A DNA stretch of 50,459 nt from Candidatus Shapirobacteria bacterium. Lineage in GTDB: Bacteria > Patescibacteriota > Microgenomatia > PFEM01 > JBDRBL01. The notes under the pieces were generated by a model. That model ran no database searches. It had not been told where the DNA came from and saw only the letters and a list, made by a program, of their open reading frames with translations. Position numbers and translations under genes: made by a program. Of the stretch, positions 12,592 through 50,224 are shown in pieces (the stretch's first letter is position 1; the number at the start of each line of letters is the position of its first letter). The DNA lies in contig JBDRBL010000021.1 in assembly GCA_043822685.1 (NCBI GenBank), positions 1 through 50,459 of the forward strand. The letters run 5' to 3'.

Positions 12592-12777
12592 TTACCAAGA
12601 AGCCTTAGTCACTCCCGGTAGCTCCCCTTTATTCGCTAACTCTCTAAAACAAAGCCGACAAGTTCCAAAAAGCCGCATGTACGCGCGCGCGCGCCCGCAC
12701 AACGAACAACGATGATGCTGTCTCGTCGAGTATTTTGGCCGCCGACTGTCTTTGATCATCTTTGCCAATCTAGCCAT
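12592..12777 (-). CDS. rpsN: 30S ribosomal protein S14, type Z (zinc form)
   Basis: MARLAKMIKDSRRPKYSTRQHHRCSLCGRARAYMRLFGTCRLCFRELANKGELPGVTKASW (61 aa from the ATG at 12777). It has the CxxC...CxxC motif. Confidence 0.93.
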   Translation of the reverse strand: MARLAKMIKDSRRPKYSTRQHHRCSLCGRARAYMRLFGTCRLCFRELANKGELPGVTKASW

Positions 12778-18282: not shown

Positions 18283-18292
18283 CTTTATCACC

Positions 18293-18314
18293 AAAAAAAG
18301 TGCCCACGGCACTT
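18293..18314 (-). terminator. Terminator/attenuator-like hairpin plus U-run abutting the rplC start
   Basis: The minus strand reads AAGTGCC-GTG-GGCACTT followed by TTTTTGG, then GTGATAAAG-ATG. It lies downstream of the promoter-like element at 18363-18392. Confidence 0.4.
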
Positions 18315-18362
18315 CTTTCTCGCCTCCGTTTTTTCCAAAGCCAAGCTAATAATGTAGCCGCT

Positions 18363-18392
18363 ATTCTACCATAGCTTCCACCGCCTTGACAA
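18363..18392 (-). promoter_or_regulatory. Sigma70-like promoter in the rpsJ-rplC spacer
   Basis: The minus strand reads TTGTCA (18387-18392), an 18-nt spacer, then TGgTAGAAT (extended -10, hexamer at 18363-18368). Confidence 0.5.
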
Positions 18393-18436: not shown

Positions 18437-18464
18437 TGTTATCATGTTTTAAAACATGATAACA
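18437..18464. promoter_or_regulatory. 28-bp perfect palindrome TGTTATCATGTTTTAAAACATGATAACA, copy 1
   Basis: Exact self-complementary 28-mer (30 bp if the flanking A/T pair is included). It lies 51 nt downstream of the rpsJ stop and 44 nt upstream of the -35-like element. Confidence 0.6.
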
Positions 18465-22580: not shown

Positions 22581-22660
22581 AGTATATCAAATACGAAAAG
22601 TGGAGTTTATCAACGAAATTTTGGTCAAAAGTTAAGCCGGTTTTTCTTTTTACCCTCTTA

Positions 22661-22669
22661 TGTTAAAAT
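22661..22669 (+). promoter_or_regulatory. Extended -10 TGTTAAAAT, 6 nt upstream of the MNT gene ATG
   Basis: The sequence reads TGTTAAAATctaatcATG, which leaves no room for a Shine-Dalgarno. Confidence 0.4.
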
Positions 22670-22675
22670 CTAATC

Positions 22676-22969
22676 ATGACAATTCGAGATATCAGCAGTA
22701 AAGTTGTTCCCACCTTAAAGCGCCAAGGAGTAACCAAAGCGGCAATCTTTGGTTCGGTAGCACGAGGAGAGGCAAAAAAAAATAGCGATGTGGACATGTT
22801 GATCAAATTCAGCGGTAAAAAGAGCTTGCTAGATTTGGTTAGGCTTCAATATGTTTTAGAGGATAAGTTGGGGAAGAAAGTTGATCTTCTAACCTATGAT
22901 TCTATTCACCCGCGACTTAAGGACATTATTTTGAATGAACAACAGGTGATTTATGATCAAAGATCCTAA
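22676..22969 (+). CDS. Minimal nucleotidyltransferase (MNT), antitoxin-type partner of HEPN
   Basis: 97-aa ORF with the GSVARGEAKKNSDVDMLI motif (GS-x-RG...D-x-D). Confidence 0.85.
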   Translation: MTIRDISSKVVPTLKRQGVTKAAIFGSVARGEAKKNSDVDMLIKFSGKKSLLDLVRLQYVLEDKLGKKVDLLTYDSIHPRLKDIILNEQQVIYDQRS

Positions 22970-23294
22970 AATTTTTCTTGGTCACATTTTAGACAGCATC
23001 ACTGAAATTGAAAATACTCTTAAATCCGTATCAGAAAAGGATTTTTCTCAAAATGTTCAAGCTCAAGACGCTGTGATTCGAAGGATAGAAATTATTGGTG
23101 AGGCAACGAAAAATTTGCCCATCACCATTACTAAGAGATATCCCAAAATTGAATGGCGTGAAATCGCCGGTATGCGAGATAAGTTGATTCATCAATACTT
23201 TGGCGTGGACGTTAAAATCGTTTGGGAAACGGCTAAAAAGGACATCCCCAAACTAAAAAGACAAATTTCAAAAGTTTTAGAAAATGAAGGTTAG
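22953..23294 (+). CDS. HEPN/DUF86-family protein (toxin-type partner of MNT)
   Basis: 113-aa ORF that overlaps the MNT gene by 17 nt. It has an Rx4H motif in GMRDKLIHQYFGVD. Confidence 0.85.
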   Translation: MIKDPKIFLGHILDSITEIENTLKSVSEKDFSQNVQAQDAVIRRIEIIGEATKNLPITITKRYPKIEWREIAGMRDKLIHQYFGVDVKIVWETAKKDIPKLKRQISKVLENEG

Positions 23295-23574
23295 GAAACC
23301 AAACGGCCATATCAGCTCTCTTGAAATCGAACAGCTCTACGATTGGTTACTAACAAACGAGAAGGAAAGAAAGGAAGCTGTCTTTACTTGGACATCGGGC
23401 CTAGCAAGATTTATTGGCTATATTGTTGAAAGATATTACAAGCAAAAGGAAAACCCCAAAAAGTATCCCAAATACAAAAATACTTTCTGCACCAAGCCTT
23501 TTATGTGTTTAAACTGTTTCGAAAACAATAAACACGGTGTTTACAGAAAAATAGCAAAAACGACCTTAAACTGA
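23284..23574 (+). CDS. Hypothetical protein (96 aa), third gene of the MNT-HEPN unit
   Basis: ORF overlapping the HEPN stop by 11 nt. It is Lys/Tyr-rich with a C-terminal Cys cluster (FCTKPFMCLNCF). No family recognised. Confidence 0.4.
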   Translation: MKVRKPNGHISSLEIEQLYDWLLTNEKERKEAVFTWTSGLARFIGYIVERYYKQKENPKKYPKYKNTFCTKPFMCLNCFENNKHGVYRKIAKTTLN

Positions 23575-23702
23575 ATAAGTTAGAATACATTTGCGACATC
23601 AACAAGAAAATTTAACACCAACTTGGACGGTCGTTAATAAGTGTGTTAAATTTAATTGAGGAGGTTGCGCCATAATCTGCACGATTATGGCGTGATACCA
23701 GC

Positions 23703-23828
23703 TCAACCAACCCTTTCCTGCCTCACTTTTTCAAAAAGAATAATCGCCGCGGCAGCGCTGACGTTGAGAGAATCAAGACCCGGCTGCATGGGGGTGGTCT
23801 GCGTCGTCCTCACTCGTATCGTTTTCAT
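23703..23828 (-). pseudogene. Internally deleted remnant of a second TrmH/SpoU-type methyltransferase gene (41-codon mini-ORF)
   Basis: The minus strand encodes MKTIRVR-TTQTTP-MQPGLDSLNVSAAAAIILFEKVRQERVG*. The first 7 codons match the 5' end of the intact gene at 24363-25106 (KTIRVR). The last roughly 28 codons match its 3' end (MQPGLDSLNVSASAAIVLFEKVRQEK). Confidence 0.8.
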
Positions 23829-23895
23829 TCGTTGGCCCTTTTTGCCACCTTGTCACAAGGGGCATAAAAAGATACAATACCTTTGGAGGTAGAAT

Positions 23896-24114
23896 ATGCG
23901 CAAAGTCAATCTAAAAAATATTGTTTGGAAAGAGGGAAAATATTACGTTTCCCAGTGTCTTAACGTGGAAGTTTCTAGCTTTGGTAAAACAAAAAAAGAA
24001 GCTTTGGATAACTTAAATGAGGCGTTGGAATTGTATTTCGAAGAAGTAAAAATTCCTAAAATAGCCGAAATTCAACGACCCGAAGTAGTAAATTTTCCCT
24101 TGTGTTATGCCTAA
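23896..24114 (+). CDS. hicB: HicB-family antitoxin (short form)
   Basis: 72-aa ORF: WKEGKYYVSQCLNVEVSSFGKTKKEALDNLNEALELYFEE. GGAGG lies 6 nt upstream of the ATG, and the ORF overlaps hicA by 8 nt. Confidence 0.8.
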   Translation: MRKVNLKNIVWKEGKYYVSQCLNVEVSSFGKTKKEALDNLNEALELYFEEVKIPKIAEIQRPEVVNFPLCYA

Positions 24115-24316
24115 ATTATGCTCTTCGCGGCATATTATTGGTGTTCTTCAAAAAAATAACTTCTTTTTTGTCTCTCGAAAGGGTAGCCACAGCAAATACC
24201 GCAAAACTGGCAAACCAACACTGACGGTAATTGTCCCTGCGGGAAAAAAAGAAATTCCCCACGGTACTTTCAGGTCCATCTTGCGCCAGAGCAAATTAGA
24301 AGAAAAAAAATTTTAA
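24107..24316 (+). CDS. hicA: HicA-family mRNA-interferase toxin
   Basis: 69-aa ORF: IIGVLQKNNFFFVSRKGSHSKYRK...VIVPAGKKEIPHGTFRSILRQ. Confidence 0.8.
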   Translation: MPKLCSSRHIIGVLQKNNFFFVSRKGSHSKYRKTGKPTLTVIVPAGKKEIPHGTFRSILRQSKLEEKKF

Positions 24317-24362
24317 AAGTCTCGTAGCAAGCGGAACAGGTCTTGCACGATAATCTGCGCGA

Positions 24363-39720: not shown

Positions 39721-39748
39721 TGTTATCATGTTTTAAAACATGATAACA
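39721..39748. promoter_or_regulatory. 28-bp perfect palindrome, copy 2
   Basis: Exact TGTTATCATGTTTTAAAACATGATAACA. It lies 38 nt upstream of the alaS TTG start and 50 nt downstream of the stop of the TrpR-like gene. Confidence 0.6.
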
Positions 39749-39797
39749 TTATTTTATACACCCAAAATCAAATTAGAAAGGTTTGGCGCCATTTAGA

Positions 39798-40184
39798 TCA
39801 GTCGCGACTTTTTGGGGGAAGAACCTCGCCGATAAAATCTTCGATCTTCTGCCAAAAATCAGCCATCTTTTCACTTTTGACAATTTTATCAATCACCGGC
39901 CAGTAACCGCTTTGACTATGGCCTAAAGTCAGGCTTACCTTGCTAACCGTGGTAAGACTAACTTTTAACCAGCGGCTAATCGTTCGCTGGTCATAATTTT
40001 TAAAAAGCAGGAAAGCAATCGCCAATCTTTTGGCTAACATCACCTTTTCCGTCGGCGACAATAAAGCTCCCAGAAAATCCTCAACGCGATCTTTGGTTGT
40101 AGCGGTAGCGACTGCCTCCAAAAAAAGATCAAAAATTCTTTTCTCAATCTCCACCGCTAAAGGCCTGCGCGAAACCTGTGTCAT
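39798..40184 (-). CDS. TrpR/YerC-YecD-like helix-turn-helix DNA-binding protein
   Basis: 128-aa ORF. LLSPTEKVMLAKRLAIAFLLFKNYDQRTISRWLKVSLTTVSKVS resembles the Trp-repressor-related family architecture. Confidence 0.65.
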   Translation of the reverse strand: MTQVSRRPLAVEIEKRIFDLFLEAVATATTKDRVEDFLGALLSPTEKVMLAKRLAIAFLLFKNYDQRTISRWLKVSLTTVSKVSLTLGHSQSGYWPVIDKIVKSEKMADFWQKIEDFIGEVLPPKSRD

Positions 40185-40191
40185 ATTCTTA

Positions 40192-40219
40192 TGTTATCAT
40201 GTTTTAAAACATGATAACA
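40192..40219. promoter_or_regulatory. 28-bp perfect palindrome, copy 3
   Basis: Exact copy whose proximal edge is 7 nt upstream of the ATG of the TrpR-like gene. Its proximal half, read on the minus strand, is TGATAACAT-aagaat-ATG. Confidence 0.6.
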
Positions 40220-40346: not shown

Positions 40347-40851
40347 TTACAAAGCAAAAGCTTTAACGGCGGAGATTAAAAAGGTTTGAATTTCCTGCGG
40401 CGAATATTTTTGCGACAAAAAGTCAATTTTGAAATCTTTAAGATCAGTAAAGTAAACCAGCTGCTCCAAAAACAATCTTTCCGAAAAGGCCCCGGCGGCC
40501 AACGACATAAGCCTTATTAGTCGCCAAATCATCAAGACGAGAAAGAAAAACACCTTCTTTTCGAATGGGCCGATGCAACGGTAAAAAGGGAAAATGAACC
40601 AAGCTAATCTTTACTCGATCGGCGGTGATCAGAGAAAGTTCATCGGAAGTATTAACAATCAGTTTTATCTTTTGACCAAAAATTTTTTTGGCCTTTAAAA
40701 CCATTTTGGAAGCGATCGGATTGAGAGAAAACAAATCAAAATCATAAGAAAAACGATGTCCCAACTGCAAAGCCAGAGCGGTGCCGCCAGCCAAAACTAA
40801 ACCACCACGCTGTCTTTTCGCCAGTCGAGCTTCTCTCTTTTTCTCGACCAC
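40347..40851 (-). pseudogene. Disrupted nucleotidyltransferase (AbiEii/DUF1814-like) gene
   Basis: Two overlapping ORFs in different frames. ORF 40444-40851 carries GGTALALQLGHRFSYDFDLF. ORF 40347-40553 carries AFSERLFLEQLVYFTDLKDF. The frames switch right after GRRG, and a central segment appears to be missing. Confidence 0.45.
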
Positions 40852-42178: not shown

Positions 42179-44295
42179 GTGATCCGCCCCGTCAAAAATT
42201 CCTCGGCATTCTTAACCAAAACCTCCCGCGCCTTCGAACTATCCGGCGGTCCAACTACTCCCTCCACTTCCAGCTGATCAATAATCCGCGCCGCGCGCGC
42301 GTAGCCGATACTCAAGCGTCTTTGCAAGAGTGATGCCGATGCCCGCTGATAGCGGCACACCTCCTGCACCGCCTCCACAAATAAATCATCACTCTCCGCT
42401 TCGCCCGCAACAACACCACTTCCCTTCCGCCAAGCACTGCCTTCCACCGCCGCCGGCATACTTGTCACCTCCTCCGCATACGCTGGCTTGCCACTCTCCC
42501 GTAAAAATTCAATCAAGCCCTTCACTTCCGGATCTGAAATATAGGTCCCCTGAATTCGTGTCGCTTTTGCCTGATCCGGCGGCACATAGAGCATATCGCC
42601 CCTTCCCAACAGCTTTTCCGCTCCCGGTCCGTCAATAATCACCCGAGAATCAATTTGCGACGACACGTTAAAGGCGATCCGACAAGGAATATTGGCCTTA
42701 ATCAGACCGGTAATCACGTCAACCGAAGGCCTTTGTGTTGACACCACCAAATGAATCCCTGTCGCCCGCGCCATCTGGGCAATCCGGCAGATAGCGTCTT
42801 CCACCTCACCCGGGGCAAACAACATCACATCCGCCAATTCATCAATTACAATTAAAATGTAAGGCAGCGCCACAAAACCGCATGCCTCATTATAAACTTC
42901 AATATTCCTCGCCCCTCCCTCCACAAATAATTTATATCGCCGCTCCATCTCGGCAATTGCCCATTTTAACGCCGACAAGACCTTCGACGGCTCCACAATT
43001 ACCGGTGACAAAAGATGGGGGATTTCATTATATTGCGTCAACTCCACTCTTTTGGGATCAACCATTAAAAACTTAACTTCCGAGGGCGAAGCTCTAAATA
43101 AAATTGACGAAATAAAAGAATGCAGACAAACCGATTTCCCGGAGCCGGTTGAACCGGCAATCAAAATGTGCGGCATCTTCCCGATATCTCCGATTATCGG
43201 CTCGCCCGCCACGTTCAACCCCAAGGCCACTGCCAGCTTCGACTTGTGTTTCTTCATCGCGCTCGAGGTCAAAATCCGCTTCAAAGCGACAAACTCCGGT
43301 GAGCGGTTGGGAACTTCCACGCCTACCAGCGACCGTCCCGGAATTGGCGCCTCAATCCGAATCTGCCCCGTCGGCGCCGCCATCGCCAGGGCCAAATCAT
43401 TCGCTAAAGTCGTAATTTTTGATAATTTGGTCCCCAAAGCGATTTCCAAAGCGTATTGCGTTACCGCCGGCCCCGGATTAACCTCAACCACTTTAGCCGA
43501 CACCCCAAACGACTCCAATGTTTTTTCAATCTTCTCGGCATTTTCATTAATATCGCCCCGATCCGCTTTACCGGAAACCGCTTCCATCAGCAAGCTCATC
43601 GGCGGATACCGCCAAGCCTGATCACCTGCCGGGGCATTACTCACTACCGTTTCCCCCAATAAACCCACCCCCGTCACTCTTTTCATCTCTTCCTCTGACC
43701 TTTTTACTCCTCCTGCTTCACCAAGCGACGGCACATTAATCTTCAACGGCCTATTTTGAATCGCGGCAAAATCCGTCTTCAATTTTACCAACGGTTTTTT
43801 CTTCTGGCTAATCACTTTCTTTATTTTTTCAATAAAATCAACCAACTCTTCGATCGAAGTATTAAAAAACAACAATAACCCAATTGCCATCACCGCCAGC
43901 AGAACCACAACCGCTCCCGCTGGCGTTCCCGCTTCCCCCAATTTTAACCAAAGGCTTTGGCCACCCCGACCCGACCTTGTGATTACTGTCACTGAAACAG
44001 CCGTCAATAGCGTTCCCAGTAAAATATTTGGATGGGCTAGTCGCCAGCGCAATCCAGACAACATCAAAGCGCAACTCAAGAAAATAAACGGCAAAAAAAT
44101 CACTCCCCAGCCCACATACTCCCCCAACCAGCCGAACAAACGGCCCAAAACCACTCCCTGTCGGGTAAACGATAAAACGATTAAAATACTCGCCGCCAAA
44201 AACACCACCATTCCCAAACTGTTCCACGTCTGTGGTTTAATTTTCAGCTTCCATTTCCGCTGTCGATGCTGTCTTTGGTATTTCGTTCTTTTCAT
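42175..44295 (-). CDS. ftsK: DNA translocase FtsK/SpoIIIE
   Basis: N-terminal TM helices, Walker A IAGSTGSGKSV, Walker B LPYILIVIDELAD, and a C-terminal gamma-like winged helix (SASLLQRRLSIGYARAARIIDQLE). The ATG at 44295 is preferred because it follows directly after the RNase J stop. Confidence 0.92.
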   Translation of the reverse strand: MKRTKYQRQHRQRKWKLKIKPQTWNSLGMVVFLAASILIVLSFTRQGVVLGRLFGWLGEYVGWGVIFLPFIFLSCALMLSGLRWRLAHPNILLGTLLTAVSVTVITRSGRGGQSLWLKLGEAGTPAGAVVVLLAVMAIGLLLFFNTSIEELVDFIEKIKKVISQKKKPLVKLKTDFAAIQNRPLKINVPSLGEAGGVKRSEEEMKRVTGVGLLGETVVSNAPAGDQAWRYPPMSLLMEAVSGKADRGDINENAEKIEKTLESFGVSAKVVEVNPGPAVTQYALEIALGTKLSKITTLANDLALAMAAPTGQIRIEAPIPGRSLVGVEVPNRSPEFVALKRILTSSAMKKHKSKLAVALGLNVAGEPIIGDIGKMPHILIAGSTGSGKSVCLHSFISSILFRASPSEVKFLMVDPKRVELTQYNEIPHLLSPVIVEPSKVLSALKWAIAEMERRYKLFVEGGARNIEVYNEACGFVALPYILIVIDELADVMLFAPGEVEDAICRIAQMARATGIHLVVSTQRPSVDVITGLIKANIPCRIAFNVSSQIDSRVIIDGPGAEKLLGRGDMLYVPPDQAKATRIQGTYISDPEVKGLIEFLRESGKPAYAEEVTSMPAAVEGSAWRKGSGVVAGEAESDDLFVEAVQEVCRYQRASASLLQRRLSIGYARAARIIDQLEVEGVVGPPDSSKAREVLVKNAEEFLTGRIT

Positions 44296-48144: not shown

Positions 48145-49970
48145 CTTAATTTCCCTATTTCTTGCCAGTCAATCTCCGAAAAAGCGGTGATTTCCCGCTC
48201 GCCCACCAAATACAAATAGTCATCAAGATACAGCGCACGGCGAATACTATTGCCTTTAACCGCTTTTAACAGTTCCAGGCGATTACCTTGATAACCAAAA
48301 ACATAACCGCCAAGATTACCCGGAACAAAAAAGATTTGGTGTTTCTCATCCTGCAAAAAAGCATGATGGGTTTGCAGAATTTCAGTGTCATATTCTTGTA
48401 ATAAATACTTGTCTAACTCCAAAGGGTCGGCTGAACTACTGACGTCAAACAGAGAAACTTTAACCTCATTGCCTTCTTTGCCTATACCCAAAATTAAATT
48501 TTTTGCCAAAGGATGCAGATAACCGGAGTAGCCGGGGATTTTTAACTCGCCCTTTTTGACGGGTTTGGCCGGATCACTCAAATCCAAAACATAAAACGGA
48601 TCAGTTTGGCGAAAAGTAACTAAATAGCCTTTATCATTGATAAACCGCACTGCATAAATCCGCTCGGTCAAGCCCAAATTTACAATCTGGCCCGCAATTT
48701 TTAGCTTCTGGTCCAAAACATAGACATCATTGGCATTGTTACCCACGGTGGTCGCCACTCGCAGATAATTTTGATATTCGTCCAGGGCAAACTGATTTAG
48801 GAGTTGGCCGGGAACACTTCCTGCTGCATTTACTTGAAAACTCGTCAGAGCAATTTTGACAATGCCCGTCTTTTCCCACTCCCGCTGGTGCTCTTGGGAA
48901 TAATTCTGCATCCGGTTGTTAAAATCATTTTGCCACTTCAAATCATTTTGATAAATTCGCAGAATTTCCTGAATCTCCACTTGTTTGGCCTGATCCGATA
49001 AATCGTAATCTTGCAGTTTTTGCAATTTTGCCCAAACACCCGCCGAAATTAAACCTCGACCAGTCGTGGCAAAAAAACCCAAAGTAATTTCTGATTGACC
49101 AAGATTGCGCGGATAAGTTAAATACCAATTTTCGCCCGAAAAATAAGTTACACTGTGGCCGCTGGAACCCAAGAGCGCCAAACTTTTTTCAACTTTACCG
49201 GTCAAAGGATCAATTACCATCAAGCTGTAAACCACTTCGGCGACGGCTGGTTCCACGGGATGATAAATCTGGACGCAATCAATCACTTGGCCCTTTAACG
49301 GCTCCAATAAACAAGGATGCTCGTCGTTGATTTGATCGCGGCCGACCAGATAAATTTTATCTTGAAACAAGCGCGCCGTTATCGTTTGGTGATTTTCTTT
49401 AATTTCTAATTGCCATTTTTGTTGTGGAGACGTGGCGCCATTAACATTCCAGGCGGTAATTTTTTTCTCACCCAAAATTATCAGCGTATCTTTGGCCAGC
49501 AACAATTCGCCATTCAAGTCAATTTGGGAAAGTTGCGCCAATTTTTCCGGCGACAGAGCCTGAATAATGCGGGTTTTTGCTTCTGGCAACGGATAGGGTG
49601 GCATCATTTGAAGATAAACCCGATCACTTTGACTGGACAGATAGATGTTTTTCCCATCGGTTTTGACGATATCCGGTTCATCAATCCCCTTAACTTGCAC
49701 ATTGGTTTCTGAAACTCGCGGGGCAGAAGCAACCACGCCCTCACTGGCCATATCCAAGCGATTCATCGTTTGCCCCATTCCCAAAGCACCCGTTCCCAAT
49801 TGTCTAGCCTTGGCTAAATATTCCTGAAATTCTGCCTCACTTTGGAAACTCTTAATCTCCTCGATTGATTTTGGAACCGGAGGGGCAATAGATTTACCCA
49901 TACGTTGCCAGACCGTTAGCCCTACTGCTAGGGCCACCATCACGATCAACAACCAGTAGATTTTCTTCAT
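48138..49970 (-). CDS. Secreted beta-propeller domain protein (Beta_propel-like)
   Basis: From MKKIYWLLIVMVALAVG (ATG at 49970) there is a signal anchor. RIYAVRFINDKGYLVTFRQTDPFYVLDLSDPAKPVKKGELKIPGYSGYLHP matches the family signature as I remember it. The ORF-track N-terminal extension is antisense to the 49992 ORF. Confidence 0.75.
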   Translation of the reverse strand: MKKIYWLLIVMVALAVGLTVWQRMGKSIAPPVPKSIEEIKSFQSEAEFQEYLAKARQLGTGALGMGQTMNRLDMASEGVVASAPRVSETNVQVKGIDEPDIVKTDGKNIYLSSQSDRVYLQMMPPYPLPEAKTRIIQALSPEKLAQLSQIDLNGELLLAKDTLIILGEKKITAWNVNGATSPQQKWQLEIKENHQTITARLFQDKIYLVGRDQINDEHPCLLEPLKGQVIDCVQIYHPVEPAVAEVVYSLMVIDPLTGKVEKSLALLGSSGHSVTYFSGENWYLTYPRNLGQSEITLGFFATTGRGLISAGVWAKLQKLQDYDLSDQAKQVEIQEILRIYQNDLKWQNDFNNRMQNYSQEHQREWEKTGIVKIALTSFQVNAAGSVPGQLLNQFALDEYQNYLRVATTVGNNANDVYVLDQKLKIAGQIVNLGLTERIYAVRFINDKGYLVTFRQTDPFYVLDLSDPAKPVKKGELKIPGYSGYLHPLAKNLILGIGKEGNEVKVSLFDVSSSADPLELDKYLLQEYDTEILQTHHAFLQDEKHQIFFVPGNLGGYVFGYQGNRLELLKAVKGNSIRRALYLDDYLYLVGEREITAFSEIDWQEIGKLSW

Positions 49971-49977
49971 CTTTTTT

Positions 49978-49986
49978 AGTATAACA
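49978..49986 (-). promoter_or_regulatory. Extended -10 TGTTATACT, 7 nt upstream of the beta-propeller gene ATG; overlaps a plus-strand TATAAC 6 nt upstream of the 49992 ATG
   Basis: The two divergent start codons are only 21 nt apart: 49970 on the minus strand and 49992 on the plus strand. Confidence 0.45.
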
Positions 49987-49991
49987 CTATT

Positions 49992-50222
49992 ATGAAAAAC
50001 ATTATCCAGAAAACTAATCAAGTCATCAAAACTTTTGCAACCGTCGAGCAGCGACCTTGGGGGATCGAAGGCTGTATGATTGAATTGACTAAACAAGTTG
50101 GCGAATTGGCCAAAAGTGTCATGATGCTGGAAAATTACTACCTGGCTGCTCGCGATCAATTGGTTCAAAAAGAGAAAGATCAAAGTCGTTCAGTAATGTT
50201 ATCATGTTTTAAAACACGATAA
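49992..50222 (+). CDS. Possible MazG-like nucleotide pyrophosphohydrolase domain protein (76 aa)
   Basis: FATVEQRPWGIEGCMIELTKQVGELAKSVMMLENYY resembles the small all-alpha MazG-like fold. The last 8 codons and the stop are encoded by palindrome copy 4. Confidence 0.35.
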   Translation: MKNIIQKTNQVIKTFATVEQRPWGIEGCMIELTKQVGELAKSVMMLENYYLAARDQLVQKEKDQSRSVMLSCFKTR

Positions 50223-50224
50223 CA
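50197..50224. promoter_or_regulatory. 28-bp palindrome, copy 4 (one mismatch)
   Basis: TGTTATCATGTTTTAAAACACGATAACA, with C instead of T at 50217. Confidence 0.55.

What the first reader, a model, noticed from the sequence alone, without database searches (positions are those of the whole stretch)
39721..40219. A TrpR/YerC-like regulator gene is bracketed by two identical copies of a 28-bp perfect palindrome that occurs four times in the window
Seen: TGTTATCATGTTTTAAAACATGATAACA, fully self-complementary, occurs exactly at 18437-18464, 39721-39748 and 40192-40219. A fourth copy at 50197-50224 has one mismatch. The flanks of the four copies are unrelated, so the conserved unit is the 28-mer itself and not a longer mobile element. 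The first three copies are intergenic; the fourth overlaps the last codons and stop of the ORF at 49992-50222. Two copies flank the 128-aa TrpR/YerC-like HTH gene. One has its edge 7 nt upstream of that gene's ATG. The other is 50 nt past its stop and 38 nt upstream of alaS. The third sits between rpsJ and rplC. Each half contains an extended -10-like TGnTAnnnT (TGTTATCAT / TGATAACAT), so face-to-face promoters are possible. However, exact conservation of a 28-bp dyad is more than a -10 element needs and is what a dimeric HTH operator looks like. Inference: the adjacent regulator may autoregulate and also co-regulate translation genes (alaS, the rplC operon) through this site. I do not recognise this motif as any described operator.
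Basis: partly seen in the sequence, partly recalled or inferred. Interest (0 to 1): 0.7.

Follow-up and report, generated by a model that had tools for sequence, protein, structure and literature searches.

The report
Repressor gene flanked by its operators
A 28-bp perfect palindrome repeated four times here is most likely the DNA-binding site of the small TrpR-like regulator whose gene it brackets, an arrangement kept across a whole family of these regulators in uncultured groundwater (Patescibacteria/CPR) bacteria, giving a rare testable regulator-operator pair for that group.

Summary
In detail: the 28-mer occurs at 18437, 39721 and 40192 (exact) and at 50197 (one mismatch), with none expected by chance.

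The regulator (39798-40184, minus strand) has a Pfam Trp_repressor domain. It belongs to a distinct subfamily, usually 147 aa, found mostly in Gottesmanbacteria and other Patescibacteria.

In about two thirds of 79 metagenome loci, and in all 12 genome or assembly loci examined, the gene sits between two near-identical 28-bp palindromes. Neighbouring genes differ between genomes.

- **Arms track the protein:** arm sequences differ between lineages and follow the recognition helix.
- **Four half-sites:** the palindrome contains four TrpR/HisR-type half-sites 8 bp apart, which reads as two overlapping 20-bp operators.
- **Position over the promoter:** the upstream copy ends mostly 2-10 nt before the ATG (mode 7), so it overlaps the core promoter. 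The mRNA is probably leaderless.

Best reading: this is an autoregulatory operator of a TrpR-family repressor. The other copies are further binding sites, some in front of genes and some inside genes.

Two points are not supported or not resolved. A conserved "translation regulon" is not supported. The role of the copy downstream of the gene is unknown. An RNA hairpin, a canonical terminator and a REP/MITE-like element each fit the data worse. No binding has been shown.

The parts
40192..40219 (.). Upstream palindrome (PAL), proposed autoregulatory operator. It ends 7 nt before the regulator's ATG.
   Evidence: Exact 28-mer. The same position is seen in homologous loci: the gap to the ATG is mostly 2-10 nt, mode 7.
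40191..40199 (-). Candidate extended -10 (TGaTAACAT). It is formed by the ATG-proximal arm plus one flanking T and would place +1 on the A of the ATG, giving a leaderless mRNA. This is an inference.
   Evidence: Sequence geometry. Homologues with short gaps lack a Shine-Dalgarno sequence, while those with gaps of 17 nt or more have a purine-rich Shine-Dalgarno-like stretch (GGAGG in several). The CACT lineage has TTGACA-17 nt-TATCAT spanning the palindrome. An alternative -10 is TGTTATCAT at 40211-40219.
39798..40184 (-). TrpR-family regulator gene, 128 aa. It is truncated relative to the 147-aa family by a TGA at the conserved Trp codon.
   Evidence: PF01371 at 48.1 bits. Alignment with 31 homologues. 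The model of a full-length homologue matches 3KOR/3G1C/1TRO with target-normalised TM 0.73-0.77.
39721..39748 (.). Downstream palindrome of the regulator cassette, 38 nt before the alaS TTG. Proposed second binding site; its role is unresolved.
   Evidence: Exact 28-mer. A downstream copy 0-66 nt after the stop is present in most homologous loci, whatever gene follows.
18437..18464 (.). Solo palindrome between rpsJ and rplC. It lies 50 nt after the rpsJ stop, upstream of the rplC promoter-like element and leader.
   Evidence: A relative with 71% identical L3 has a degenerate copy (TGTTATCATGTTTCAGAACATGAGAACA) in the same rpsJ-rplC interval.
50197..50224 (.). Solo palindrome with one mismatch. 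It overlaps the stop of ORF 49992-50222 (+).

Best explanation
The 28-bp palindrome is most likely the operator of the TrpR-family repressor whose gene it brackets.

**Architecture (inferred from sequence).** Each palindrome carries four half-sites of the TrpR/HisR type. They lie at positions 1-7 and 9-15, with mirror images at 14-20 and 22-28. This amounts to two overlapping 20-bp (7+6+7) operators offset by 8 bp. Two repressor dimers are therefore expected to bind side by side, as E. coli TrpR does on tandem sites.

**Autoregulation (inferred).** The copy upstream of the regulator gene covers the core promoter from about -35 to +1. The mRNA is probably leaderless or has a very short leader. 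Bound repressor would block RNA polymerase and give negative autoregulation.

**Other copies.** The second copy just after the stop codon belongs to the same cassette. It is a second binding site whose role is open: a cooperative loop, a roadblock or insulator, or the operator of whatever gene follows. Solo copies elsewhere, including the two others in this window, would be further binding sites of the same protein.

**Status.** Shown: the conserved bracket, the co-variation of arms with the recognition helix, the half-site periodicity and the position relative to the ATG. Not shown: binding, stoichiometry, the transcription start site, the direction of regulation and the effector.
For: 1. **Not chance.** The motif gave 4 matches against 0 in shuffles.
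2. **Protein family.** The gene is PF01371. The AlphaFold model of a full-length homologue (mean pLDDT 79.6) best matches TrpR-like structures 3KOR, 3FRW, 3G1C, 1TRR and 1TRO (profile search).
3. **Conserved bracket.**
   - All 8 genome loci with a homologue have two copies flanking the gene. So do L036, L039, L040 and L121.
   - Of 79 metagenome loci, 55 have a 12/14-or-better palindrome upstream and 53 downstream. Random windows of the same size reach this in under 1% of cases.
   - Flanking genes differ between genomes.
   - Only about 14 extra copies were found in 280 kb around the gene.
4. **Co-variation with the protein.** The two copies in one genome are near-identical, but arms differ between lineages (TGTTATCATG, TGTTACCATG, CACTCTAATGAT, ATATAAAATGAT, TGTATTAATG). 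They track the recognition helix: KVSL(G/T)TV, KVGLETV with a CTAG centre, RVTPSTIA, KVSLPTVSG.
5. **Half-site anatomy.**
   - Positions 1-7 recur at 9-15, with identity 0.56 at offset 8 against 0.22-0.37 at other offsets.
   - In the window, the 20-bp pattern TGTTWYN-N6-NRWAACA occurs only inside the palindromes, twice each, 8 bp apart.
   - The outer half-site CACTTTA equals the published HisR consensus cacTTTA-N6-TAAAgtg. The inner TGTACTA/TAGTACA equals the TrpR half-site (PMC9413887).
   - Tandem TrpR binding has been crystallised (1TRR; Lawson & Carey 1993, cited in PMC4506495).
6. **Promoter overlap.**
   - The gap to the ATG is mostly 2-10 nt without a Shine-Dalgarno sequence. Long-gap variants have a purine-rich Shine-Dalgarno-like stretch (GGAGG in several).
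   - The CACT lineage has TTGACA 2 nt before the palindrome, giving TTGACA-17-TATCAT.
7. **A copy inside a gene.** A copy inside an ATP-dependent DNA ligase gene is kept at the homologous position in two genomes, with different palindromic centres (TTTTAAAA and TTCTAGAA).
8. **Precedent.** About half of hisR genes are preceded by their own site.
Against: - No experimental binding, transcription start or expression data exist.
- The protein is below the NCBIfam cut-offs for both TrpR and YerC/YecD, so its specificity cannot be transferred from them.
- Individual copies change symmetrically more often than independent half-sites should: 59 mirrored co-differences against about 16 expected. For example, TTTTAAAA and TATCGATA centres occur in one genome. 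This points to base-pairing or palindrome homogenisation on top of protein recognition.
- 27 of 47 downstream copies have no co-directional gene to regulate. Some solo copies lie between convergent genes.
- The distance between the two copies shows no helical phasing.
- Target genes share no pathway.
- The window's own regulator lacks the C-terminal tail.
- Co-variation of helix and site is confounded by shared ancestry.
Confidence: 0.7

Rival explanations
1. The palindrome acts as an RNA (or single-stranded DNA) hairpin. It would be a bidirectional terminator, a stabiliser or a processing signal at gene ends, and the regulator association would be secondary.
For: - It is a perfect 12-bp stem with a 4-nt loop, -12.5 kcal/mol, z = -6.5.
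- Copies often lie 0-66 nt after a stop codon, including between convergent genes (L074, L003).
- Compensated arm changes are enriched.
- The terminator scan flags copy 39721 on the + strand.
Against: - The stem is 25% G+C, and there is no consistent U-tract on the coding strand. The + strand hit at 39721 is antisense to both neighbouring genes.
- The same genome uses a canonical GC-rich, U7 terminator in the rplC leader.
- Mismatches on the sense strand are G.T 56 against A.C 43, so there is no wobble bias.
- Sequence, not only structure, is fixed within a genome and tracks the HTH helix.
- One copy ends 7 nt before the regulator's ATG, where a terminator would silence the gene.
- There is no Rfam match.
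Confidence: 0.1
2. The palindrome-gene-palindrome unit is a REP/RAYT-like (REPtron-like) or MITE-like selfish cassette, and the solo palindromes are dispersed copies.
For: - The gene is flanked by its own palindromes.
- Palindromes are lineage-specific.
- The cassette sits in non-syntenic contexts.
- One locus has a tandem duplication with three palindromes (L113).
- Solo copies are identical and lie in short intergenic gaps.
Against: - The protein has only a Trp_repressor HTH domain, with no Y1/HUH or other catalytic domain.
- There are no target-site duplications or shared flanks.
- Copy number is low. An exact-arm scan of one representative genome for each of 185,579 species found 1-5 matches per genome. 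For one genome, adding the regulator's two near-exact flanking copies brings the count to 7.
- The window has no decayed copies.
- The spacing to the regulator's ATG is fixed.
- There is no match in 2.9 million viral contigs.
Confidence: 0.1
3. The palindrome is simply two face-to-face constitutive extended -10 promoter elements (TGTTATCAT), read only by RNA polymerase.
For: - TGTTATCAT, TGTTATAAT and TGTTATACT occur as stand-alone extended -10-like elements upstream of other genes in the window: 25115, 26546 and 49978.
- Many copies lie 7-22 nt before a start codon.
Against: - Sigma-70 specificity would not change with the lineage of a neighbouring HTH protein, yet the arms do (CACTCTAATGAT, ATATAAAATGAT and others).
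- Most contexts are co-directional or convergent genes, not divergent ones.
- Palindromy, the 8-bp half-site repeat and the intragenic copies are not needed for a promoter.
Confidence: 0.05
4. The palindrome is bound by a different protein, for example a recombinase, a partition or nucleoid protein, or a restriction-modification component. The TrpR-like gene would be only a frequent neighbour.
For: - 28-bp dyads with a TGTT...AACA outline recall parS- or dif-like sites (from memory, not tested).
- Some copies are intragenic.
- Targets are heterogeneous.
Against: - No other gene is consistently linked to the palindromes.
- Palindromes are concentrated on the TrpR-like gene: 2 per 0.5 kb against about 1 per 20 kb nearby.
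- Half-sites match those of the TrpR family.
Confidence: 0.05

Closest known systems
E. coli TrpR and its trp/aroH/trpR operators, including tandem dimer binding
   Same: - Same Pfam family (PF01371) and fold.
- Palindromic operator built from TGTA-type half-sites.
- The operator overlaps the promoter.
- trpR is autoregulated, and dimers bind in tandem with an 8-bp register (1TRR; PMC9413887).
- The Saccharibacteria-type palindrome even contains TGTACTAGTACA.
   Different: - The protein is 147 aa, with about 45 extra C-terminal residues, and scores below the TrpR equivalog cut-off (29.7 against 67.25 bits).
- The site is a fixed 28-30-bp dyad with four half-sites.
- The gene is bracketed by two sites.
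- The effector is unknown, and the targets are not tryptophan genes.
HisR (B. subtilis YerC), the TrpR-family histidine repressor of Firmicutes
   Same: - The closest solved structures are HisR-like (3G1C, 3KOR, 3FRW).
- The outer half-site of one lineage (CACTTTA ... TAAAGTG) equals the HisR consensus.
- About half of hisR genes carry their own site.
   Different: - The HisR site is 20 bp (7+6+7). Here the outer half-sites are 14 bp apart, with a second inner pair.
- The score is below the YerC/YecD cut-off (20.5-30.9 against 42.2 bits).
- No histidine genes lie next to the sites.
- A classical HisR-type gene with tandem 20-bp sites exists separately in a Patescibacteria genome (L030).
REP sequences with their RAYT transposase (REPtron)
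   Same: - A gene is flanked by the palindromes that its lineage is associated with.
- Further copies are scattered in intergenic DNA.
   Different: - There is no HUH/Y1 domain.
- Copy number is a few per genome, not tens to hundreds.
- Copies are perfect dyads at a fixed distance from the gene's ATG.
Auxiliary-operator systems with repression loops (lac O1/O2, gal OE/OI, deo)
   Same: Two identical operators lie a few hundred bp apart around or within the regulated unit (467-537 bp here).
   Different: - Here the two sites flank the repressor's own gene.
- There is no helical phasing signal.
- Oligomerisation beyond a dimer is unknown.

Membership tests
TrpR family (Pfam PF01371 / TrpR-like fold) | Trp_repressor domain above the Pfam gathering score | tested here: met
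   48.1 bits against a cut-off of 27 for the window protein. PF01371 is precomputed for all 120 listed homologues.
TrpR family (Pfam PF01371 / TrpR-like fold) | All-helical TrpR fold | tested here: met
   The AF2 model of P0007 (pLDDT about 90 over residues 11-90) matches 3KOR, 3G1C, 1TRR and 1TRO with target-normalised TM 0.73-0.77. The intertwined dimer was not modelled.
TrpR family (Pfam PF01371 / TrpR-like fold) | Sequence-specific binding to a palindromic operator | not testable with these tools
   Only inferred, from the conserved bracket, co-variation and half-site similarity.
TrpR proper (NCBIfam TIGR01321 equivalog) | Score above the equivalog cut-off; tryptophan co-repressor; trp/aro targets | tested here: not met
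   29.7 and 26.9 bits against a cut-off of 67.25. No trp or aro genes lie next to the sites examined.
YerC/YecD = HisR (NCBIfam TIGR02531) | Score above the cut-off; about 100 aa; 20-bp operator in front of his genes | tested here: not met
   20.5 and 30.9 bits against a cut-off of 42.2. Typical length is 147 aa. The site is 28 bp, and no his genes are adjacent.
Autoregulated repressor with operator over its own promoter | Cognate site overlapping the -35 to +1 region of its own gene | tested here: inconclusive
   The position fits: the gap to the ATG is mostly 2-10 nt, and one lineage has TTGACA-17-TATCAT spanning the site. No transcription start data exist.
REP/RAYT (REPtron) | Flanked gene encodes a Y1/HUH transposase; tens to hundreds of REP copies | tested here: not met
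   Only the Trp_repressor domain is present. An exact-arm scan found 1-5 matches per genome, and 7 copies in one genome when near-exact ones are included.
MITE | Terminal inverted repeats around an internal segment, target-site duplication, decayed copies | tested here: not met
   The conserved unit is the 28-30-bp dyad itself. Flanks are unrelated and lack direct repeats. There are no degenerate copies with up to 9 mismatches.
Intrinsic (Rho-independent) terminator | G+C-rich stem followed by a U-tract on the transcribed strand | tested here: not met
   The stem has 3 G-C pairs out of 12. A T-rich tail occurs only on the antisense side of copy 39721. Downstream flanks in homologues are not U-rich. 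There is no G.U bias.
Known RNA family (Rfam 15) | Match at the gathering score | tested here: not met
   No match anywhere in the window.

The most novel reading that the evidence does not exclude
The palindrome-regulator-palindrome unit may be a self-contained and possibly relocatable boundary module. The bound TrpR-like protein would make each palindrome both a gate for a leaderless promoter and a protein roadblock or insulator. The regulator gene would then be sealed off from read-through on both sides, and solo copies would partition transcription units in streamlined Patescibacteria genomes. The symmetric evolution of single copies would reflect hairpin or cruciform extrusion as part of the mechanism.
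Probability: 0.2. Interest if true: 0.75.

Novelty: new variant of a known kind. Interest (0 to 1): 0.55.

Why it matters
Almost nothing is known about transcriptional regulation in Patescibacteria (CPR), which cannot be grown alone. The case for this pair rests on three points.

- **Breadth.** The protein family has 150 clusters (at 50% identity) with E <= 1e-30. It comes with a precisely defined, co-evolving 28-bp site, so the pair can be tested directly in vitro.
- **A possible extension of TrpR tandem binding.** If the four-half-site reading is right, the TrpR tandem-binding mode is here hard-wired into a single composite operator.
- **A leaderless promoter-operator module.** The site appears to combine a leaderless promoter with its operator in these genomes.

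The invariable second site behind the gene and the symmetric drift of individual copies are not explained by textbook autoregulation, and could reveal an insulation or looping mechanism.

Practical use: the motif lets regulon members be predicted in hundreds of metagenome-assembled genomes. The searched literature contained no description of it.

Tried and rejected
- **Rfam scan of the whole window:** no hit.
- **Exact-protein look-up of the window's regulator:** not on record, so the source genome could not be scanned.
- **RNA-hairpin test:** G.T against A.C mismatches on the sense strand were 56 against 43, so there is no bias.
- **Helical phasing of the distance between the two copies:** none (Rayleigh p 0.4-0.7).
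- **Conservation of the rpsJ-rplC site in the nearest relatives (L3 64-71% identical):** the junction is rearranged there by toxin-antitoxin insertions. One degenerate copy was found in L122 and none in L123 or L124.
- **Common function among genes next to solo copies:** none found.
- **Viral contigs:** no TGTTAYCATG-N8-CATGRTAACA match.
- **Literature searches for a description of this family or motif in CPR:** nothing found.
- **LexA, parS and dif resemblances** were considered from memory. They were dropped because no such protein is linked to the sites and the half-sites match the TrpR family.
- **A few genome-scan hits in unrelated phyla** (Anaerocolumna, Saprospiraceae, Pyrinomonadaceae, Rokubacteria). 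Most have different, often non-palindromic centres, and none shows a regulator homologue in the fetched stretch. They were treated as unrelated.
Full report
**1.
- The 28-mer TGTTATCATGTTTTAAAACATGATAACA is at 18437-18464, 39721-39748 and 40192-40219 without mismatch. It is at 50197-50224 with one mismatch (T21 to C). Shuffled sequence never produced a match.
- No further copy exists in the window even when 9 mismatches are allowed.
- Nearly all genes in the window are on the minus strand.
- The ORF 39798-40184 (-) encodes a 128-aa protein with a Trp_repressor domain (48.1 bits, cut-off 27). One palindrome ends 7 nt before its ATG. The other lies 49 nt after its stop and 38 nt before the TTG start of alaS.
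- The third copy lies between rpsJ and rplC. The fourth overlaps the end of a 76-aa + strand ORF with no family match.
- The flanks share nothing and show no direct repeats.

**2. The same arrangement is found wherever the protein is found.**
- A scan of one genome for each of 185,579 species with TGTTATCAYG-N8-CRTGATAACA returned 35 stretches. Most come from Candidatus Gottesmanbacteria and other Patescibacteria assemblies.
- In all eight stretches that encode a homologue of the regulator, the gene lies between two copies, once up to 3 mismatches per copy are allowed.
- The same holds in four loci fetched through homologous proteins. One of them has different arms (TGTATTAATG...CATTAATACA).
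- Among 79 metagenome loci found through the protein, 55 have a palindrome of at least 12 of 14 pairs within 70 nt upstream of the start. 53 have one within 200 nt after the stop. Fewer than 1% of random windows of the same size reach this score.
- The neighbouring genes differ from genome to genome. Only about 14 further copies occur in 280 kb around the gene. The pair of palindromes therefore belongs to the regulator gene, not to alaS.
- Of 47 distinct downstream copies, 27 have no co-directional ORF starting within 60 nt.

**3. The protein.**
- It is a TrpR-family protein but neither TrpR nor YerC/YecD (HisR) in the strict sense. Both NCBIfam equivalog scores are below cut-off.
- Homologues are typically 147 aa, with a C-terminal extension ending in a basic tail.
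- A profile search finds 150 clusters (50% identity) at E <= 1e-30 and 1451 at E <= 1e-10.
- An AlphaFold model of a full-length member (mean pLDDT 79.6; about 90 over residues 11-90) matches the HisR-like structures 3KOR, 3FRW and 3G1C. It also matches E. coli TrpR, including the tandem-binding complex 1TRR, with target-normalised TM 0.73-0.77 (sequence profile).
- The window's copy stops at a TGA exactly where all homologues have Trp. It therefore lacks the tail. rpoB and rpoC are uninterrupted under the standard code, so TGA is a true stop here.

**4. Anatomy of the site.**
- Across 80 distinct palindromes, the half-consensus is T-R-Y-T-n-T-A-A-T-G-W-T-T-Y.
- Positions 1-7 recur at 9-15, with identity 0.56 at an offset of 8 against 0.22-0.37 at offsets 5-11.
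- With the mirror images, this gives four half-sites. Equivalently, it gives two overlapping 20-bp sites of the form 7+6+7, offset by 8 bp.
- In the window, the 20-bp pattern TGTTWYN-N6-NRWAACA occurs only inside the palindromes, twice in each.
- This is the geometry of published TrpR-family operators: HisR cacTTTA-N6-TAAAgtg, proteobacterial HisR TGTAnTA-N6-TnTTACA, and TrpR TGTAcTnGTnnACnAgTACA (PMC9413887).
- One lineage here has CACTTTA...TAAAGTG as outer half-sites. Another has TGTACTA/TAGTACA as inner ones.
- The 8-bp register is that of tandem TrpR binding (1TRR; reference in PMC4506495).
- That two dimers bind is my inference.

**5. Co-variation.**
- The two copies in one genome are near-identical, but arms differ between lineages. 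The HTH recognition helix differs with them:
  - KVSL(G/T)TV with TGTTAYCATG arms;
  - KVGLETV with the TTCTAGAA centre;
  - RVTPSTIA with CACT/TACT arms;
  - KVSLPTVSG with ATATAAAATGAT.
- The window protein (KVSLTTV) matches its class.
- Shared ancestry contributes to this pattern, so it is supporting evidence, not proof.

**6. Relation to the promoter.**
- The upstream copy ends mostly 2-10 nt (mode 7) before the ATG, with no Shine-Dalgarno sequence. In the variants with gaps of 17-29 nt, a purine-rich Shine-Dalgarno-like stretch (GGAGG in several) appears.
- In the CACT lineage, a consensus TTGACA lies 2 nt before the palindrome. This gives TTGACA-17 nt-TATCAT, with the start predicted at the palindrome's edge.
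- In the window, the ATG-proximal arm plus one T reads TGaTAACAT. This would put +1 on the A of the ATG.
- The beta-propeller gene in the same window has TGTTATACT 7 nt before its likely ATG (49970), so this geometry is used elsewhere in the genome.
- The operator thus spans roughly -35 to +1, the classical position of a repressor. The transcription start itself is not known.

**7. What does not fit a simple operator.**
- When the two copies of one genome differ, mirrored positions differ together more often than expected: 59 against about 16, with 0 of 5000 permutations reaching the observed value. 39 of these differences keep both copies perfectly paired. Examples are TGC...GCA, TGG...CCA, and centres TTTTAAAA against TATCGATA in one genome.
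- Mismatched pairs on the sense strand are G.T 56 against A.C 43. An RNA hairpin on the mRNA is therefore not indicated.
- A DNA-level cause is more likely. Candidates are palindrome homogenisation by template switching, or a need for cruciform or hairpin extrusion. This is not resolved.
- The function of the downstream copy is also open. No helical phasing of the 467-537-bp spacing was found.

**8. Other copies and the supposed regulon.**
- Solo copies in other genomes lie mostly in short intergenic gaps, often 7-22 nt before a start codon.
- The genes after them include pheS and gltX (and alaS in this window). They also include alpha/beta hydrolases, methyltransferases, a deoxynucleoside kinase, a DUF1246/DUF1297 ATP-grasp protein, a cupredoxin-like protein and a transporter.
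- Two genomes keep a copy inside the ATP-dependent DNA ligase gene, at the same variable loop. It codes for CYHVL(K/E)HDN, and the two genomes have different palindromic centres.
- In the window, the rpsJ-rplC copy lies upstream of a separate promoter-like element and a conserved leader with a canonical terminator hairpin. A relative has a degenerate copy in the same interval.
- There is therefore no evidence for a conserved translation regulon.

**9. Rivals.**
- **Canonical terminator or RNA element:** unlikely. The stem is AT-rich, there is no U-tract on the coding strand, there is no wobble bias, there is no Rfam hit, and one copy ends 7 nt before an ATG.
- **REP/RAYT- or MITE-like element:** this would explain the bracket and the changing context. 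However, the protein has no catalytic domain, copy number is low, there are no target duplications or decayed copies, and nothing is found in viral contigs.
- **Pure promoter:** this would not co-vary with an HTH helix.

**10. Verdict.**
The translation-regulon idea is not.
- This is a new variant of a known kind: a TrpR-family repressor with a composite 28-bp operator and a conserved two-operator bracket. It is widespread in Patescibacteria and was not described in the literature searched.
- All mechanistic steps beyond sequence patterns remain to be tested.

Noticed in passing
window 39768-39800 (-): The regulator ends at a TGA exactly at the Trp codon conserved in all 147-aa homologues (PPKxRD|W...). 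The sequence after it has lost similarity to the family's basic C-terminal tail. The window's protein is therefore a C-terminally truncated variant.
   Followed up: partly
window 18283-18392 (-); also L122 9875-10003, L123 520-660, L124 1935-2065: rplC has its own promoter-like element (TTGTCA-18 nt-TGgTAGAAT) and a leader. The leader ends in an invariant hairpin, GUGCC-nnn-GGCAC, followed by U7, directly before the ATG. It is conserved in three relatives and has no Rfam match, which suggests a ribosomal-protein attenuator. In the three relatives examined rplC is not directly preceded by rpsJ: in L122 a MazE/PIN pair lies between them, and L124 has the same pair upstream of rplC.
   Followed up: partly
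window 22600-24320 (+): A low-GC (0.40) island lies on the opposite strand between fusA and a SpoU-type methylase gene. It carries a nucleotidyltransferase/HepT pair and a HicA toxin.
   Followed up: partly
window 40444-40851 (-): This ORF matches only the first ~40 positions of the 238-position AbiEii toxin profile. It is probably a gene fragment just upstream of the regulator cassette.
   Followed up: no
window 49968-49986 (-): The beta-propeller gene probably starts at ATG 49970 (signal-peptide-like MKKIYWLL...), not at TTG 50183. TGTTATACT lies 7 nt upstream. This is the same leaderless geometry as proposed for the regulator.
   Followed up: no
L014 5506-5533 and L017 3284-3311: A palindrome of this family lies in frame inside the ATP-dependent DNA ligase gene, in a variable loop of the N-terminal domain. 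It is at the homologous position in two genomes, with different centres (TTTTAAAA, TTCTAGAA).
   Followed up: partly
L113 1141-2094: Two tandem paralogues of the regulator are separated and flanked by three palindromes. This is consistent with duplication by recombination between the palindromes.
   Followed up: no
L030 ~480-540: A different, shorter YerC/HisR-like gene in a Patescibacteria assembly is preceded by two adjacent classical 20-bp sites (TACTTTA-N6-TAAAGTA). The canonical 20-bp operator type therefore coexists with the 28-bp type in this group.
   Followed up: no
L003, L004, L013, L014, L017, L025, L027: Contigs labelled 'uncultured Gammaproteobacteria' carry this Patescibacteria-type palindrome, four of them (L004, L013, L025, L027) with the regulator. 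One (CAYIBX010000009.1, 39809 bp) has the same length as a Hainich groundwater metagenome contig (L055). The taxonomic labels look doubtful.
   Followed up: no
window 12678-12701 and 42284-42309: Two short alternating (CG)n-rich near-palindromes lie inside coding regions.
   Followed up: no
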